Shown: positions 30,001 to 39,000 of the stretch, piece after piece | How positions within the stretch are numbered: position 1 is the first letter of the stretch | Layout of the letters: each line of letters opens with the position of its first letter | Assembly: GCA_000165345.1 (NCBI GenBank) | Contig: CM000435.1 | Span: 608,001-672,000 of the forward strand | Length of the DNA stretch: 64,000 nucleotides | Reading direction: 5' to 3' | Program-made: the position numbers

Positions 30001-33000
30001 GTCCAAAGACTCGCAAAGAAAGTTTTGGTAGAACATGTGAATATTTGTCGTACCACATATCCTCGTACCACCAATAAGCAGCCTGTATTTGAAAGTATAA
30101 ATGAATTGCATCCTCAAGTAAATTTACGGGAAGATTTGTAAAAAATCTTGCGTAACAATCATCTATTGCCTCTGAAAATGCAGCCTCCATATCTTTATAT
30201 GCAGCCTCCATATCAAAATTGCTGATTAGTCTTTCCATCGGTCCGTTTACTTTGTTTTTCTTTTTTGTAGTAGTTTTAAGTGTATCTATTTGTTCTTGTG
30301 GTATTGAATCTCGACTATAGCGATTCATAAAAATTCCCCTTACCTTAGATAAAATAATATCTTCGGGTGAATATTTCATAGCAATATCTGAAGCTGTCTT
30401 TTTTTCGTCAAGTTGTGCCGATTGTTCAAAATTGTTCATTACACTTTCTCTTGTTAAATTTGGTGGTAAAATATTCAAATTATGGGATCTATCGCGATCA
30501 ATTAAAAATTTTTTAAGAATATTTGATCCTAATGTTTCTTGAAATCCTCCTGAGATTTCAATCCTATCTCCTATTTTATGGCCAGAGTTGTTTGCCTCAT
30601 CTTCGTTTTTCAGAAAGCAATCATTTAGTCGATTAGAACAGATTTTATTCATGTTGCTATTAAAAATACTGGATTGCACTAAATTGTCATCTCTCAAATT
30701 ATTAATTTGATTGCATTTACCTTTTATATCAATAATGTATCCTGATTCAGAAGAATGTGTGGTATCTCTACCAGCATTTTCACTTCGAGAACTTAGACAA
30801 TTTGTTGAGCCAAAACTGCCATTTTGTGTTACTATATGAGAGAGGCTCTCTATAAGTTGATCCATAAATGAAGAACTATGATTTGTGTTTGTTTTTACTT
30901 CATGAATTACTTTTTCTGTATTTGCCTAAAATAATTAATAATTACTAGCGCCATATAATAGCGCTAATCAGAAATGAATTACATTGTAAATTTAAAAAAA
31001 AAAAGTTCTCGATAACTTAAGATGATCGACAACTTTGTCTCAGAAAATACACTTTAACATACTTCTTAATTGTATTACGTAAAAAGCTTTTTAATCATTT
31101 GGATTCATGTCTTAAAATTTTTTGTTGAAGATTTCAACTAATTATAGATCACAACTTGCGGTCAAATTGGTACCGAAGTTTATTAATAAATAGAAATACA
31201 TTCATTTTATCTTATCTATTATAAGGATTATTCATGTGATTTTTCATTTTAAATCTGATTAATATGGAGCTGTCGAACAGCTGTAAATGTTTCTTTAATA
31301 AATGTGCTCACAACATTAATTTAAAATTTGATGATGCTGAAGAAATTATTAATGGAAGTAGCGAAATATTTCTTGAAAGTGAAACTGAATTTCCTAATAA
31401 AATTTTTATTCAAACCCCATCTTTACTCTATTGCAATATTATATCTGTTGAAGTTAATGGAAATTATTTTGAAGGATGGTCAATTAATCCTGTACCAACT
31501 CTTGAAGATTCAAACAAAATAGTCGGTCACAACGTATTTGATATAGCAACTCTTCAAATGGCGTACGGATTTATCTCATCAAACTATGGTGAAATTAACC
31601 CTGATCAATCTAATGTGATTGAAAATCGATTATTGATTTTAATATCAGATGAAAAAATGCTTAATACAGCTACGGATGCTACGAATGAGAACGAATACAA
31701 GTATTCGATAATAATCAAAGTTAACTTTGAACTGCTGATAAATGTCCCAAAATCGCCAATTACTTATGTTATTGAGAATGACAATTCAATCAATATATCC
31801 ATAATACCAAATTCCCATTCTAAATTACCATGGTTTCCAACTCTCTCATCAGCCCTATATCTTACTGAAGATGCTTCACCATTTTGGAACTCTCCGTGGA
31901 GTTTTAAATGTACTGTGCCAAATGGCTATTCAGCAATCATGCCTGGTATTTTAAATACGAATTGTTTTGTCAATAGGACCAATACAATTAATGAAAATAC
32001 TTTCGAGTATAACTATGACTCAGGAACGTCTTTTCCTCACATTTATCCAAATAATATTGCACTTTTGATTGGAAAATATATAAGAGAAGATAAAACTATT
32101 GGGAAAAATACTGTAACGATTTTTAGACCTATAGATGTATCTCAAATAGTCAATATTGCGAACTTTGTTGTAGAAATTATGGATGGATATGAGAAACTAC
32201 TAAATAACACTCTTCCAATGAAATCAATAATTATTGTTTTTTCAAATTATATTTTTAATCAACATTCACATTTTTTCAATTGCCATGGGAGAGTTTCCGA
32301 CACACTAGGTAAAGTAGAGATGCTTTCTAATGCATCATCACCGCTACTTTATCAAGAGAATAATTACTACTCTCACTTAAGCGAAACAGACATTGGTAAT
32401 ACAATTGGTAACATAATTATTGTGCCATTAGATATGTTTCCCCATAAGGTGATATCTAATATGTCATCAGCAATTGATAACAAAAAGAATAATTTTCAAG
32501 ACAATTTTAGAATGCAAATAAGAACTCTTACAATGCCAATAATAATATTATTGGATCGCTTGGCCAGCCTTTGGTTTGGATCTTATATTCATATAACAAA
32601 TTTAAAACGGCTTCCAACAGATGGCTGGATGTTGTTGGGCATGAAAAGATATTTAATGCGTCAAATGGCAAAGAAGCTTTGCGGAGAAGACTTAGTTAAA
32701 TGTAGAATGAAGGAAGCACTAGAGAGGTGTTTACTGCTCATAGAAAATGGAAATGATTATATCCCATTATCTGTAAAAGACTTTTACATCAATCTACAGC
32801 AAAATGGCACACCAAGTTTTCCTCTAATTCATTGGAGTCAGAGAGAATGTCAAACCCTGTTTAGATTAAAATCAGACATTGTATTTCATAGTTTGCAATG
32901 TTACGTTAATCAGATGATAAAAAGCAAAGCGCGCAAGGTTGGTTTTGGCTTTTCTGATTTTGATTCTTCTATTAAACAAAATTCACAATCAAAATTTTTC

Positions 33001-36000: not shown

Positions 36001-39000
36001 TCATACCCATTTGATCCACTAATATTTCAAAATATTTCAAATATGTATATATCTTTATTTGGTCATGGAGTCCCTGTTTGTATGAATCAAACTCCATTTA
36101 TTTCTCAAGATGTTAAATGTAATCAGTTAGTATTTAATCCTTCTAATGGATATATCTTATCTGCAATACCAGAAGTACCCATGAAAGAGTCATTGCGAAA
36201 ACGCCAAAAATTCATTAAGAGAGGATGCGATTTATCAGATTCCATTCAAATTAGAAGGCTGTGCGATGATGAAAGTTATATTATTTCTAGAGGGTGGAAA
36301 CACATATGCAAAAAAATAACGCAATGTCTAATTGAGTCTCCATATGGGGCACCTTTTATTCACCCGGTTGATGAAAATGATGCTCCTGACTATTATAATC
36401 TTATTGAGCAGCCGATTGACTTATCAACAATAATGAATAAAGTAAAACAGGATTTGTATGAATCTATCGAACACTATCGTTCCGATGTTGACCTAATCTT
36501 TGCAAATTGCAAAAAGTACAATGAGTCAACTTCACAGATAGTTGAGTGGTGTAACAAAATCCAATCTGAATTTGACCAGTTATTTAAACCCGTTTGTAGA
36601 CTCTTTGCATAAAAATTTTTCAGCCACTGTCTAGCTTCGCAGACCGCAATTATTTGTCATAGTTTTTTTTTTTATAGTTTACATTTTCGAAAGCACTGTA
36701 GTGAATGTTGTAAATATATTTCAACATACTTCACTATTTTAGTTCCGAAATGTTTAGAAATTATAGTAACTGTTCAAAGCTTTAAATTTTTGATTATTGA
36801 AGAAGGTTCAATGAGTTTTTTTTATCAAAATCATTCTGGAGATAAAACCAATCTCCAAATAAATAAAGGAGAGATATATGAACATGCAAAAAAAAAGCAG
36901 ATTGATTATGCTGTCAAACAGGGAATTACTGGCTCTATCAAGATGGTTTGGGGATTATGCTATGAATATTTTATTTCGAATGGTTCAAATGAATTAATTG
37001 GTAGACCTATTAATCGAAATAATGGAAAGAGTGTTTTGTCTAAAATAAAACTACCTAAATATAAATTATTACTGACTTTTTTGTTAATTCTCGGTTCTTC
37101 AATTGTTTCGTATTACTTCTCTTTATTAATTGGCAGTTTCTGGAGCGCATTGGAAACCAAAAACAAAGATAGATTTCAAAAAATTTTGTTCTACTATTTT
37201 TTAATGCTTATTATAAACGGAGCAATTAATTGTGCTAGAACTGATATGTCGATTCGAATTCAAATTGATTTAAGGATGTGGCTAACTAATTTGATTTTGA
37301 AACAATATTATTCTGATTTAACTTACTATCAGTTCTCAATAAATAAGATGATTGATAACCCTGACCAAAGAATTGGAGAGGACATTTCACTGTTTTCATC
37401 ACATTTATTATTGTTAATATGTCGTTGTATAGACAACTTATTCGACTTTTTTGTTTATTCAATATTGCTATACAATGTTAATTTCAAATTGTTTATTTCA
37501 GCAATTATTTATTCTTGTTTTGGCACATTTTTAACTGCTAAATTAGGCATGAATATAATATTATTAAAAGTTCAAGAAAAAAAGCTTGAAAGTGATTTTA
37601 GATATTCAATTATGAGAGTTGGTGAAAATGCAGAAAATGTTGCAATGTATGGAGGAGCTCAGTGCGAGATGGAAAGACATGAGCAAATTTTAAATTCACT
37701 GCTTCTCAACTTAACTACGAAAAGATCATTTGAATCTAAAATGGGACTCTTTGGAAGTATTTTTAGAAACCTAATACGTGTTCTGCCTATTGCGGTTATT
37801 TCAGGAGACTACTTTTCAGGAAATATCCAACTTGGGAGAATTAATCAGTGTAGCCTTGCATTTAACAGTATAGTTGAAGATATTTCAATTTTGGTCAATA
37901 CTTTTAGAGAAATAAGTAATCTACTTTCTTCAATAGATAGAGTAGGGCATTTTATTGCATCGATGGCAGATAACTATATTGAATCTCAATCTATAAATAT
38001 TGGAGAGAAATTAATTAGTAGTTTTGAGAATGATTCTAAAACTAGCAGAAAAATTGATTTCTTACATCTTGAAAGCGAGTTTTCAAGACAAATGAAGGAG
38101 AAATCTTTAGAATTTAAACTTAATTTCCCGGCAGGAATTGCTTCTAAGTCATTAAAAAATTGTGTTAAATTAGAATTTACAAACACTCAGGGGAAATCTT
38201 CGGTTAATATACGTGGAAAAATTAGATCAGTAATATGGCCAGAACCAAAAATTAAGTTTGAAAGTGTGTCGATTAATACTCCGGAAGAATATCCCAGGAA
38301 ACTCCTTTTTAATATAAACTTTATGATTGAACATAGCGATAAAGTCCTAATAACAGGGGACTCCGGCGTTGGGAAATCATCACTCTTAAAGGTAATTTGT
38401 GGGATTTGGAAGAATGGGTCAGGAAATATTTATAGGCCACCTTCTAGTGAATTATTATTTATACCGCAAAAACCCTACTGTACCCAAGCAACGCTAAGGG
38501 AACAACTGTTTTATCCGCAAATACCCTCAATTAAAACTAATGGCTATGAATATAAGAATAAGGAAGAACTAGATTCATATCTATTGAAAATTCTTGAGGA
38601 AGTTGGGCTGAAATATCTATGTGATCGACTTTCTGAAAGTGGAACAGTTAATTGCTTAGACACCATTAAAGACTGGTCAACAATACTTTCGCTTGGAGAA
38701 CAGCAAAGACTTGCATTTGCAAGAATATTTATTTTCAAACCATCTATTTGTTTCCTTGATGAAGCTACAAGTGCGTTAGACATGGAGACTGAAACAAAAT
38801 TATATTCAATGTTAAGTAAAAAAAAGTTTACATACGTTAGTGTAGGTCACAGGCCCTCAATATCAATATTTCACAACAAAAAACTCCTTATCAAAAATGG
38901 TAACATAATTTTTGAGTGTATATGAACACGAGAAAGATAAATTCCTTTACACAAATATAATTAGTATATGACCTTTTTTTTATTTCTTTTTTTGGCGGAA

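What the first reader, a model, noticed from the sequence alone, without database searches (positions are those of the whole stretch)
31264..36612. TAF2-like degenerate M1-peptidase-fold protein with a C-terminal bromodomain
The N-terminal two-thirds carries the M1 aminopeptidase/TAF2 structural fingerprint (…WFG…W…GW.L.G…) without the HExxH zinc site. The last ~110 aa form a bromodomain with conserved Y and N positions (…YYNLIEQPIDL…IFANCKKYN…). Bromodomains in TFIID normally reside in TAF1, not TAF2. A TAF2-bromodomain fusion would be a lineage-specific rewiring of acetyl-lysine reading into the TFIID core. It is also a potential selective inhibitor target.
Basis: partly seen in the sequence, partly recalled or inferred. 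Interest (0 to 1): 0.5.

Follow-up and report, generated by a model that had tools for sequence, protein, structure and literature searches.

The report
Cryptosporidium TAF2 with C-terminal bromodomain

Summary
Window 31264-36612 (+) is one uninterrupted 1782-aa ORF, identical to C. parvum Iowa II EAZ51582.1, which is annotated 'FALZ protein'. Residues 1672-1782 are a canonical bromodomain: Pfam gives 73.5 bits against a cut-off of 21.7, the fold matches solved bromodomains at about 1 A, and Y1710 and N1753 are present. Pfam finds nothing in the first 1680 residues. Four other lines show that this part is a very divergent TAF2. (1) A bromodomain-free profile of residues 1-1200 retrieves apicomplexan orthologues and Pfam-verified TAF2s at E = 7e-8 to 1e-4 in 1.8 billion proteins. 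(2) Human TAF2 is the only meaningful PDB sequence hit. (3) hhalign gives 96.8% and 94.3% probability for two regions in the same order. (4) The AlphaFold model matches human TAF2 (7edx_B, E = 9e-22) ahead of M1 aminopeptidases. HExxH and GxMxN are absent, as in the other TAF2s sampled. The novelty claim is overstated. The fusion occurs across the Apicomplexa (gregarines, coccidia, piroplasms). It is already named PfBDP6/TAF2 and TgTAF2/150, and TAF2 bromodomains are published for fungi. Interest is modest.

The parts
31264..36612 (+). Complete single-exon CDS (1782 aa plus stop) of the C. parvum TAF2 orthologue with a C-terminal bromodomain (= EAZ51582.1 / UniProt A3FPP3, annotated 'FALZ protein')
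   Evidence: ORF list; exact-sequence look-up; orthologues in 9 Cryptosporidium species
31300..32133 (+). Domain 1, aa ~13-290: N-terminal beta-sandwich (Peptidase_M1_N-like), containing the conserved TAF2 motif WFPT (aa 190-193)
   Evidence: Strands in the AF2 model, pLDDT mostly 65-90; Foldseek alignment to TAF2 and M1 peptidases; PDB profile stretch q181-328 ~ human TAF2 181-311; WFPT/WFPC column conserved
32155..33216 (+). Domain 2, aa ~298-651: thermolysin-like 'catalytic' domain of the M1 fold, catalytically dead
   Evidence: hhalign Crypto 431-695 ~ canonical TAF2 P0022 238-447, probability 96.8%, E = 2.2e-10; helices 411-651 in the AF2 model; Foldseek
32554..32640 (+). Degenerate zinc-site helix, aa 431-459 DRLASLWFGSYIHITNLKRLPTDGWMLLG. 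It takes the place of M1 HExxH(x18)E. The D-R-L-A-S residues replace H-E-x-x-H
   Evidence: Alignment with canonical TAF2s (human LAQSLAQQFFG..WSDEWVLKG; 30-sequence alignment); no HExxH or GxMxN anywhere in the protein
33232..34446 (+). Domain 3, aa ~657-1061: Ig-like beta-sandwich equivalent to Pfam TAF2_3rd, split by three low-confidence lineage-specific insertions (aa ~703-758, 800-848, 938-994)
   Evidence: Strands 657-687, 764-790, 904-934 and 1046-1061 plus low-pLDDT segments in the AF2 model; bracketed by the two hhalign matches, which map onto P0022 TAF2_3rd 394-551; orthologues P0015 and P0016 give sub-threshold TAF2_3rd hits
34390..34521 (+). TAF2 signature block, aa 1043-1086 HLLWIIADSSQYWLAKISRYQTWSMWDQQFLNETDVIGQFEAAY (junction of the Ig-like and helical-repeat domains). 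W1046 and A1084 are invariant and M1067, W1068 and Q1071 are at least 90% conserved across the 30 aligned TAF2s
   Evidence: hhalign 94.3%, E = 9.7e-8; PDB profile stretch ~ human TAF2 613-668; alignment columns
34456..36063 (+). Domain 4, aa ~1065-1600: alpha-solenoid (HEAT/ARM-like) domain in the position of Pfam TPR_TAF2_C
36064..36243 (+). Low-confidence linker, aa ~1601-1660, containing a basic patch RKRQKFIKR (aa 1645-1653; possible NLS, inferred)
   Evidence: pLDDT < 50 segments at model residues 605-659; basic cluster
36277..36609 (+). Bromodomain, aa 1672-1782 (Pfam core 1682-1763): four-helix bundle with acetyl-lysine pocket residues Y1710 (PDYY), Y1752 and N1753 (KYN)

Best explanation
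The gene encodes the Cryptosporidium parvum orthologue of TFIID subunit 2 (TAF2). Its sequence is extremely divergent, but it keeps the full TAF2 architecture. From N- to C-terminus this is an M1-aminopeptidase-like beta-sandwich, a catalytically dead thermolysin-like domain, an Ig-like domain and a HEAT-like solenoid. A flexible linker then joins a canonical bromodomain to the C-terminus. SHOWN: homology to TAF2, the fold, loss of the peptidase motifs, an intact acetyl-lysine pocket, and conservation of the fusion across the Apicomplexa. INFERRED: the body works as in other eukaryotes, as the TAF2 module of TFIID (with TAF1 and TAF7) that sits on initiator and downstream promoter DNA. The tethered bromodomain would bind acetylated histone tails of promoter-proximal (+1) nucleosomes, or another acetylated protein. 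That would give TFIID a second built-in acetyl-lysine reader alongside the TAF1 bromodomain (cgd4_650) and stabilise TFIID on active, largely TATA-less promoters. The TAF2 C-terminal tail is a recurrent attachment point for acyl-lysine readers: it carries fused bromodomains in many fungi and recruits the YEATS proteins Taf14 (yeast) and ENL (human).
Confidence: 0.8

Rival explanations
1. It is a TAF2-derived scaffold that no longer works in TFIID. It would have been co-opted into a parasite-specific chromatin complex, with the bromodomain as the main functional module and the dead-peptidase/HEAT body acting only as a protein-interaction platform.
For: Extreme sequence divergence: no direct Pfam hit and only ~20% identity to canonical TAF2s. 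About 250 aa of lineage-specific insertions sit in the Ig-like domain. Histone-fold TAFs are reported undetectable in Plasmodium (PMC1199594). No interaction data were found.
Against: The most conserved blocks are the TAF2-specific ones. All four TAF2 domains are kept in order. TAF1, TAF7, TAF10 and TBP candidates exist in apicomplexans (PMC1199594), and TAF1 exists in C. parvum (cgd4_650). Only one TAF2-like family was found in Cryptosporidium.
Confidence: 0.12
2. It is a BPTF/FALZ-type (NURF) or GCN5-type chromatin protein, as the database names 'FALZ protein' and 'Histone acetyltransferase GCN5' imply.
For: The bromodomain's best single-domain PDB matches are to BPTF: 60 bits and 35-38% identity. 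Database names are listed.
Against: There is no DDT, PHD or GNAT domain; the only Pfam hit is the bromodomain. The other 1670 residues are homologous to TAF2. The names rest on bromodomain similarity alone.
Confidence: 0.02
3. It is an active M1 metallo-aminopeptidase that carries a bromodomain.
For: M1 aminopeptidases (IRAP, ERAP1/2, APN, PSA) are strong structural matches at E ~1e-17.
Against: HExxH(x18)E and GxMxN are absent. TAF2 is a better structural and sequence match than any peptidase. TAF2-specific motifs are present.
Confidence: 0.01

Closest known systems
Apicomplexan TAF2/bromodomain proteins: P. falciparum PfBDP6/TAF2 (PF3D7_0724700) and T. gondii TgTAF2/150 (TGME49_214240)
   Same: Large proteins with a divergent TAF2-like body and a single C-terminal bromodomain. 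The same architecture was recovered here in Besnoitia, Babesia, Theileria, Gregarina, Ancora and Selenidium. PfBDP6/TAF2 is listed as essential (PMC9010790).
   Different: The C. parvum protein is much shorter: 1782 aa against 3351 aa reported for MAL7P1.134 (PMC1199594) and 3014 aa for Besnoitia. Its bromodomain is more canonical: it keeps PVD...PDYY, which coccidian and piroplasm copies have lost, and the Besnoitia bromodomain scores only 29 bits against it. The Pf and Tg sequences were not in hand, so orthology to them is inferred through Besnoitia, Babesia and Theileria. No database names the C. parvum gene TAF2.
Fungal TAF2 with bromodomains (Basidiomycota, Mucoromycota, Blastocladiomycota; Antonova et al. 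2019, PMC6672047)
   Same: A TAF2 body with bromodomain(s) in the C-terminal tail. About 80 basidiomycete examples with PF00439 were recovered.
   Different: Fungal proteins have Pfam-detectable TAF2 domains and usually 2-3 bromodomains placed inside the tail at about residues 1240, 1600 and 1720 of ~1820. Apicomplexans have one bromodomain at the extreme C-terminus. Fungal TAF2 bromodomains score no better against the Cryptosporidium bromodomain (<= 51 bits) than unrelated human BPTF does (60 bits). This fits independent acquisition but does not prove it.
Human TAF2 in TFIID (PDB 7EDX/6MZC chain B)
   Same: Best structural match (E = 9e-22) and the only meaningful PDB sequence match. Same domain order and the same dead active-site helix (LAQSLAQQFFG...WSDEWVLKG).
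   Different: About 11% identity. Human TAF2 has no bromodomain; its disordered C-terminal tail binds ENL instead (PMC13643176 abstract). The Cryptosporidium protein has ~250 aa of insertions in the Ig-like domain and a longer solenoid.
Metazoan TAF1 tandem bromodomains, and C. parvum TAF1 (cgd4_650, PDB 6MF9)
   Same: An acetyl-lysine reader built into TFIID. TAF1 BD2 aligns at 49 bits.
   Different: It sits on a different subunit. C. parvum has both, so TFIID there would carry two readers on neighbouring subunits.
Yeast Taf2-Taf14 (YEATS) interaction
   Same: The TAF2 C-terminal tail brings an acyl-lysine reader into TFIID (PMC9177701 abstract).
   Different: Here it is a covalently fused bromodomain.

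Membership tests
TAF2 (TFIID subunit 2) | N-terminal M1-aminopeptidase-like fold (beta-sandwich plus thermolysin-like domain) | tested here: met
   AF2 model pTM 0.71. Foldseek: human TAF2 E = 9e-22, M1 peptidases 1e-17 to 1e-15. hhalign 96.8% over aa 431-695.
TAF2 (TFIID subunit 2) | Direct hits above threshold to the Pfam TAF2 models (PF01433 Peptidase_M1, PF25316 TAF2_3rd, PF25577 TPR_TAF2_C) | tested here: not met
   Only the Bromodomain model is reported, even at E <= 1. Membership therefore rests on profile, profile-profile, transitive and structural evidence.
TAF2 (TFIID subunit 2) | TAF2-specific Ig-like domain and helical-repeat junction signature (LWIR.DP...MW..QL..D.DV.AQ.EA) | tested here: met
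   hhalign 94.3%, E = 9.7e-8, aa 1039-1141 ~ P0022 527-613. PDB stretch ~ human TAF2 613-668. Conserved columns.
TAF2 (TFIID subunit 2) | C-terminal HEAT/ARM-like solenoid after the Ig-like domain | tested here: inconclusive
TAF2 (TFIID subunit 2) | Significant sequence-profile link to bona fide TAF2 proteins, with TAF2 (not peptidases) as the best known match | tested here: met
   Whole-library hmmsearch: P0022 7.2e-8, P0028 6.3e-5, P0029 8.8e-5, Brassica TAF2 1.2e-4, all Pfam-verified as TAF2. Human TAF2 is the only meaningful PDB hit. Gregarine bridge at 50 bits.
TAF2 (TFIID subunit 2) | Loss of the peptidase catalytic motifs (GxMxN; HExxH at the homologous helix) | tested here: met
   Regex finds neither motif. 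The homologous helix reads DRLAS-LWFG, and the sampled canonical TAF2s also lack HExxH there. PMC6672047 states that GxMxN is absent from all TAF2s.
TAF2 (TFIID subunit 2) | Only TAF2-like gene in the genome (orthology, not paralogy) | not tested
   Only one Cryptosporidium family appeared. The C. parvum proteome as a whole could not be searched with a canonical TAF2 profile using these tools.
TAF2 (TFIID subunit 2) | Physical membership of TFIID (association with TBP, TAF1, TAF7, TAF8) and promoter binding | not testable with these tools
   No interaction data for any apicomplexan TAF2 were found in the literature searches.
Bromodomain (PF00439) | Pfam score above the gathering threshold | tested here: met
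   73.5 bits against 21.7, covering 82 of 84 profile positions.
Bromodomain (PF00439) | Left-handed four-helix bundle | tested here: met
Bromodomain (PF00439) | Acetyl-lysine-anchoring Asn (BC loop) and conserved Tyr residues (ZA loop PDYY; Y before N) | tested here: met
   N1753, Y1752 and Y1710/Y1711 are present and align with TAF1 BD2 and PBRM1. The Asn is conserved in all TAF2 bromodomains aligned.
Bromodomain (PF00439) | Binding of acetylated lysine peptides | not testable with these tools
   Requires a peptide array, ITC or a crystal structure. No solved structure of this domain is in the PDB (no identical chain).
Active M1 metallo-aminopeptidase | HExxH(x18)E zinc site and GxMxN exopeptidase motif | tested here: not met
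   Both absent.
BPTF/FALZ (NURF301) | DDT domain and PHD fingers next to the bromodomain | tested here: not met
   No Pfam hit other than the bromodomain. The database name 'FALZ protein' reflects bromodomain similarity only.
GCN5 histone acetyltransferase | GNAT acetyltransferase domain | tested here: not met
   No GNAT hit. C. parvum GCN5 is a different gene, cgd3_3190 (PMC8638923 S1).

The most novel reading that the evidence does not exclude
The TAF2-bromodomain fusion arose once in the common ancestor of all Apicomplexa, since it is present in archigregarines, eugregarines, Cryptosporidium, coccidia, piroplasms and Plasmodium. It arose independently of the fungal TAF2 bromodomains. [quoted passage not shown] In a TFIID that may lack most histone-fold TAFs, a TAF1-BD plus TAF2-BD pair would form a two-reader module that is the main means of recruiting TFIID to acetylated +1 nucleosomes, and the Cryptosporidium copy would be the most canonical and druggable version.
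Probability: 0.4. Interest if true: 0.45.

Novelty: new member of a known kind. Interest (0 to 1): 0.28.

Why it matters
The result gives a correct functional name, TAF2, to a C. parvum gene now annotated 'FALZ protein', 'hypothetical protein' or even 'GCN5'. That adds a general transcription factor to a parasite whose basal transcription machinery is poorly defined. It shows that the TAF2-bromodomain architecture extends to Cryptosporidium and the gregarines, so it is an ancient feature found across the Apicomplexa and not a peculiarity of Plasmodium and Toxoplasma. It also shows that TAF2 bromodomains are not confined to fungi. Cryptosporidium TFIID would carry two bromodomains, on TAF1 and TAF2. 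The TAF2 bromodomain has an intact pocket, is only 35-38% identical to its closest human relative (BPTF), and has no solved structure, whereas three other C. parvum bromodomains do. It is therefore a reasonable candidate for structural genomics and inhibitor work. The concept itself is not new.

Tried and rejected
- A direct Pfam scan of the full protein at E <= 1 found only the bromodomain.
- Single-sequence and full-length-profile searches of PDB sequences were swamped by bromodomain hits. I solved this by cutting the alignment into bromodomain-free parts.
- The profile of aa 1001-1680 against PDB gave no hit.
- Full-length hhalign reported only the bromodomain. Sub-alignments were needed.
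- The search for homologous proteins, with the protein and then with a 12-sequence apicomplexan alignment, returned only Cryptosporidium orthologues because of its word prefilter.
- I could not identify the organism behind P0022 (EukProt transcriptome GILJ01/GILK01), the canonical TAF2 with one C-terminal bromodomain.
- I could not confirm the CryptoDB gene ID. cgd7_1130 is a guess: it is one of the unnamed 'Bromodomain only' entries in PMC8638923 S1, the longest contig carrying the protein is 1.36 Mb, and cgd2_2690 appears excluded because its solved bromodomain (6CW0) is only 27% identical. A literature search for the ID found nothing.
- The TGME49_214240 search found no paper. The single paper holding 'BDP6' together with Plasmodium uses it for Toxoplasma BDP1-BDP6 and says nothing about TAF2.
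- The BPTF/FALZ, GCN5 and active-peptidase readings were rejected on domain and motif content.
- The antisense 110-aa ORF at 35487-35819 (-) lies inside the gene. I treated it as spurious.

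
Full report
OBSERVATION

The window is Cryptosporidium DNA: about 30% GC with densely packed genes that each read as one uninterrupted ORF. Coordinates 31264-36612 (+) are exactly one uninterrupted ATG-initiated ORF of 1782 codons. The protein is identical to C. parvum Iowa II EAZ51582.1 / UniProt A3FPP3, annotated 'FALZ protein'. Other records call it or its C. hominis orthologue 'hypothetical protein', 'Bromo domain containing protein' and, wrongly, 'Histone acetyltransferase GCN5'. Orthologues exist in at least nine Cryptosporidium species at 40-94% identity.

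Flanking genes are Dcp2 (28910-30865, - strand) and an ABCD-type half-transporter (36790-38925, + strand).

BROMODOMAIN

N-TERMINAL 1680 RESIDUES

I built Cryptosporidium-only alignments without the bromodomain: A2 for aa 1-1200 and A3 for aa 1001-1680.

(i) The A2 profile against all PDB sequences returns human TAF2 as the only meaningful hit, at whole-sequence E = 0.0052. It consists of three weak stretches in the same order: aa 181-328 ~ TAF2 181-311, aa 429-491 ~ 346-404, and aa 1031-1086 ~ 613-668.

(ii) The same profile was searched exhaustively against 1.84 billion representative proteins and gave 27 hits. Outside Cryptosporidium these fall into two groups.
- Large proteins from Ancora, Selenidium and Gregarina (gregarines), Besnoitia (coccidia), and Babesia and Theileria (piroplasms), at E = 3e-34 to 7e-8. 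In current gene models all of them end in a bromodomain, even though the query had none. Several give sub-threshold TAF2_3rd or TPR_TAF2_C hits. UniRef names Theileria TA07330 'Transcription initiation factor TFIID subunit 2'.
- Proteins that pass Pfam thresholds for canonical TAF2 domains: P0022 (Peptidase_M1_N + Peptidase_M1 + TAF2_3rd + TPR_TAF2_C + Bromodomain; E = 7.2e-8), P0028, P0029 (with two bromodomains) and Brassica TAF2.

(iii) hhalign of the Cryptosporidium profiles against a canonical-TAF2 alignment gives 96.8% probability (E = 2.2e-10) for aa 431-695 ~ P0022 238-447, which is the M1 catalytic-like domain. It gives 94.3% (E = 9.7e-8) for aa 1039-1141 ~ P0022 527-613, which is the TAF2_3rd/TPR_TAF2_C junction.

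(iv) Bromodomain-less gregarine orthologues bridge the two groups by plain phmmer: 80-100 bits to Cryptosporidium and ~50 bits to Brassica TAF2 and P0022.

(v) An AlphaFold2 model of aa 1-1200 (pTM 0.71, mean pLDDT 64, with low-confidence insertions) shows a beta-sandwich, a thermolysin-like domain, a second beta-sandwich and helical repeats. Its top Foldseek hit in the PDB is human TAF2 in the TFIID pre-initiation complex (7edx_B, E = 9e-22; 6mzc_B, 1.3e-16). M1 aminopeptidases IRAP, ERAP1/2, PSA and APN follow at 1e-17 to 1e-15. One caveat applies: the alignment given to AlphaFold contained canonical TAF2s, so this line is not fully independent of the sequence evidence.

(vi) A 30-sequence alignment shows the TAF2 signature blocks conserved from Cryptosporidium to plants, animals and fungi: WFPT/C; LA.(Q)WFG...(W).D.WL..G..Y; and LLWI(R).D...W.......Q..MW.QQL..D..V.AQ.EA.

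At the position of the M1 zinc motif the Cryptosporidium protein reads DRLAS-LWFG, and no HExxH or GxMxN occurs anywhere in the protein. The canonical TAF2s sampled also lack HExxH at that helix (human LAQSLAQQFFG). A dead active site is therefore a property of the family and not a Cryptosporidium peculiarity.

IDENTITY AND MECHANISM

The protein is a highly divergent TAF2 orthologue with a bromodomain tethered to its C-terminus by a low-confidence linker (aa ~1601-1660). The linker contains a basic patch, RKRQKFIKR.

Shown: the homology, the fold, the loss of catalytic motifs, the intact acetyl-lysine pocket, and conservation of the fusion across the Apicomplexa.

Inferred from established knowledge of TFIID (the TAF1-TAF7-TAF2 lobe contacts initiator and downstream promoter DNA next to the +1 nucleosome): the body acts as the TAF2 module of TFIID, and the bromodomain docks on acetylated promoter-proximal nucleosome tails or on an acetylated partner, stabilising TFIID on active promoters.

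C. parvum also has a TAF1 with its own bromodomain. This is cgd4_650, which has the InterPro TFIID-subunit-1 domain plus a bromodomain in PMC8638923 S1 Table and a solved structure, 6MF9, described as 'Taf250, transcription initiation factor IID'. The TAF2 bromodomain is therefore a second reader, not a relocated one.

The TAF2 C-terminal tail is a recurrent attachment site for acyl-lysine readers. It carries fused bromodomains in fungi (PMC6672047), binds Taf14 YEATS in yeast (PMC9177701) and binds ENL in human (PMC13643176).

COMPARISON WITH WHAT IS KNOWN

Callebaut et al. (2005) predicted PfTAF2 as MAL7P1.134 by PSI-BLAST and HCA (PMC1199594). Later reviews list PfBDP6/TAF2 (PF3D7_0724700, essential) and TgTAF2/150 (TGME49_214240, Bromodomain) among apicomplexan bromodomain proteins (PMC9010790; PMC8638923 S1).

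Antonova et al. [quoted passage not shown] My search with P0022 recovered about 80 basidiomycete TAF2s carrying PF00439. The TAF2-bromodomain architecture is therefore known in two literatures.

Three things are modestly new here.
- C. parvum and the gregarines are explicitly assigned to this family. No database names the Cryptosporidium gene TAF2, and the review table leaves the C. parvum entries unnamed.
- The fusion occurs across the Apicomplexa, so it is not restricted to fungi.
- The Cryptosporidium bromodomain is the most canonical of the apicomplexan copies. It keeps PVD...PDYY, and the Besnoitia copy scores only 29 bits against it.

Fungal TAF2 bromodomains are usually multiple and sit inside the tail. 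They score no better against the Cryptosporidium bromodomain (<= 51 bits) than human BPTF does (60 bits). This fits independent fusions but does not prove them.

RIVALS

- A co-opted, non-TFIID role for a TAF2-derived scaffold cannot be excluded without biochemistry (confidence about 0.12).
- The BPTF/FALZ and GCN5 readings fail because the DDT, PHD and GNAT domains are absent.
- An active M1 peptidase is excluded by the missing zinc and exopeptidase motifs.

VERDICT

The significance was overstated. This is the Cryptosporidium member of an already recognised apicomplexan TAF2-bromodomain family, with a published fungal parallel, and TAF1 keeps its own bromodomain. Novelty: new member of a known kind. 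Interest: about 0.28.

Noticed in passing
window 62061-63497 (-): A 478-aa ORF with no Pfam hit. It is very rich in W, E, K and G, with recurring units such as WGEKW, GDKWEEEW and GEEWSEEW. It coincides with the most extreme strand skew in the window (GC skew -0.47, AT skew -0.28 at 62-64 kb). It looks like a tryptophan-rich repeat protein of unknown family.
   Followed up: partly
window 36610-36790, and proteins P0002, P0007, P0008: Gene models in Cryptosporidium sp. chipmunk genotype, C. ryanae and C. xiaoi (2799-2859 aa) fuse the TAF2-bromodomain protein to the downstream ABCD-type ABC transporter. The C. ryanae model also carries further unrelated sequence. In C. parvum a stop codon at 36610-36612 and a 177-nt spacer separate the two ORFs, so the fusions are probably annotation artefacts.
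   Followed up: partly
Theileria annulata TA07330 (P0016) and TA07335; P0046: TA07330 (1684 aa, named TFIID subunit 2 in UniRef, no bromodomain) and the neighbouring bromodomain gene TA07335 (listed in PMC8638923 S1) appear to be one TAF2-bromodomain gene split in two. The 1786-aa re-annotation P0046 carries the bromodomain.
   Followed up: partly
NCBI records for the C. hominis orthologue (P0153) and the C. parvum protein (P0152): The orthologue is named 'Histone acetyltransferase GCN5' in one record and 'FALZ protein' in others. Both names come from bromodomain similarity only; there is no GNAT, DDT or PHD domain.
   Followed up: yes
window 40001-50000: G+C drops to about 0.24-0.25, against 0.29-0.34 elsewhere. 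The stretch covers an 846-aa ORF with no Pfam hit (40648-43188, +) and most of a 2442-aa separase (Peptidase_C50; 43840-51168, +).
   Followed up: no
window 2463-6881 (-), 51610-56163 (+), 56264-58732 (-): Three large ORFs (1472, 1517 and 822 aa) have no Pfam family at E <= 1e-5. They may be further highly divergent proteins that, like the TAF2, could be identified with profile and structure methods.
   Followed up: no
protein P0022 / P0048 (EukProt transcriptomes GILJ01012519, GILK01013644): A compact TAF2 (1140-1257 aa), fully recognisable by Pfam, with a single bromodomain at the extreme C-terminus as in apicomplexans, from an organism I could not identify. Of the canonical TAF2s it scores best against the Cryptosporidium profile (E = 7.2e-8). 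It could help date the fusion.
   Followed up: partly
window 35487-35819 (-): A 110-aa antisense ORF lies wholly inside the TAF2 coding region. It is most likely a chance ORF.
   Followed up: no
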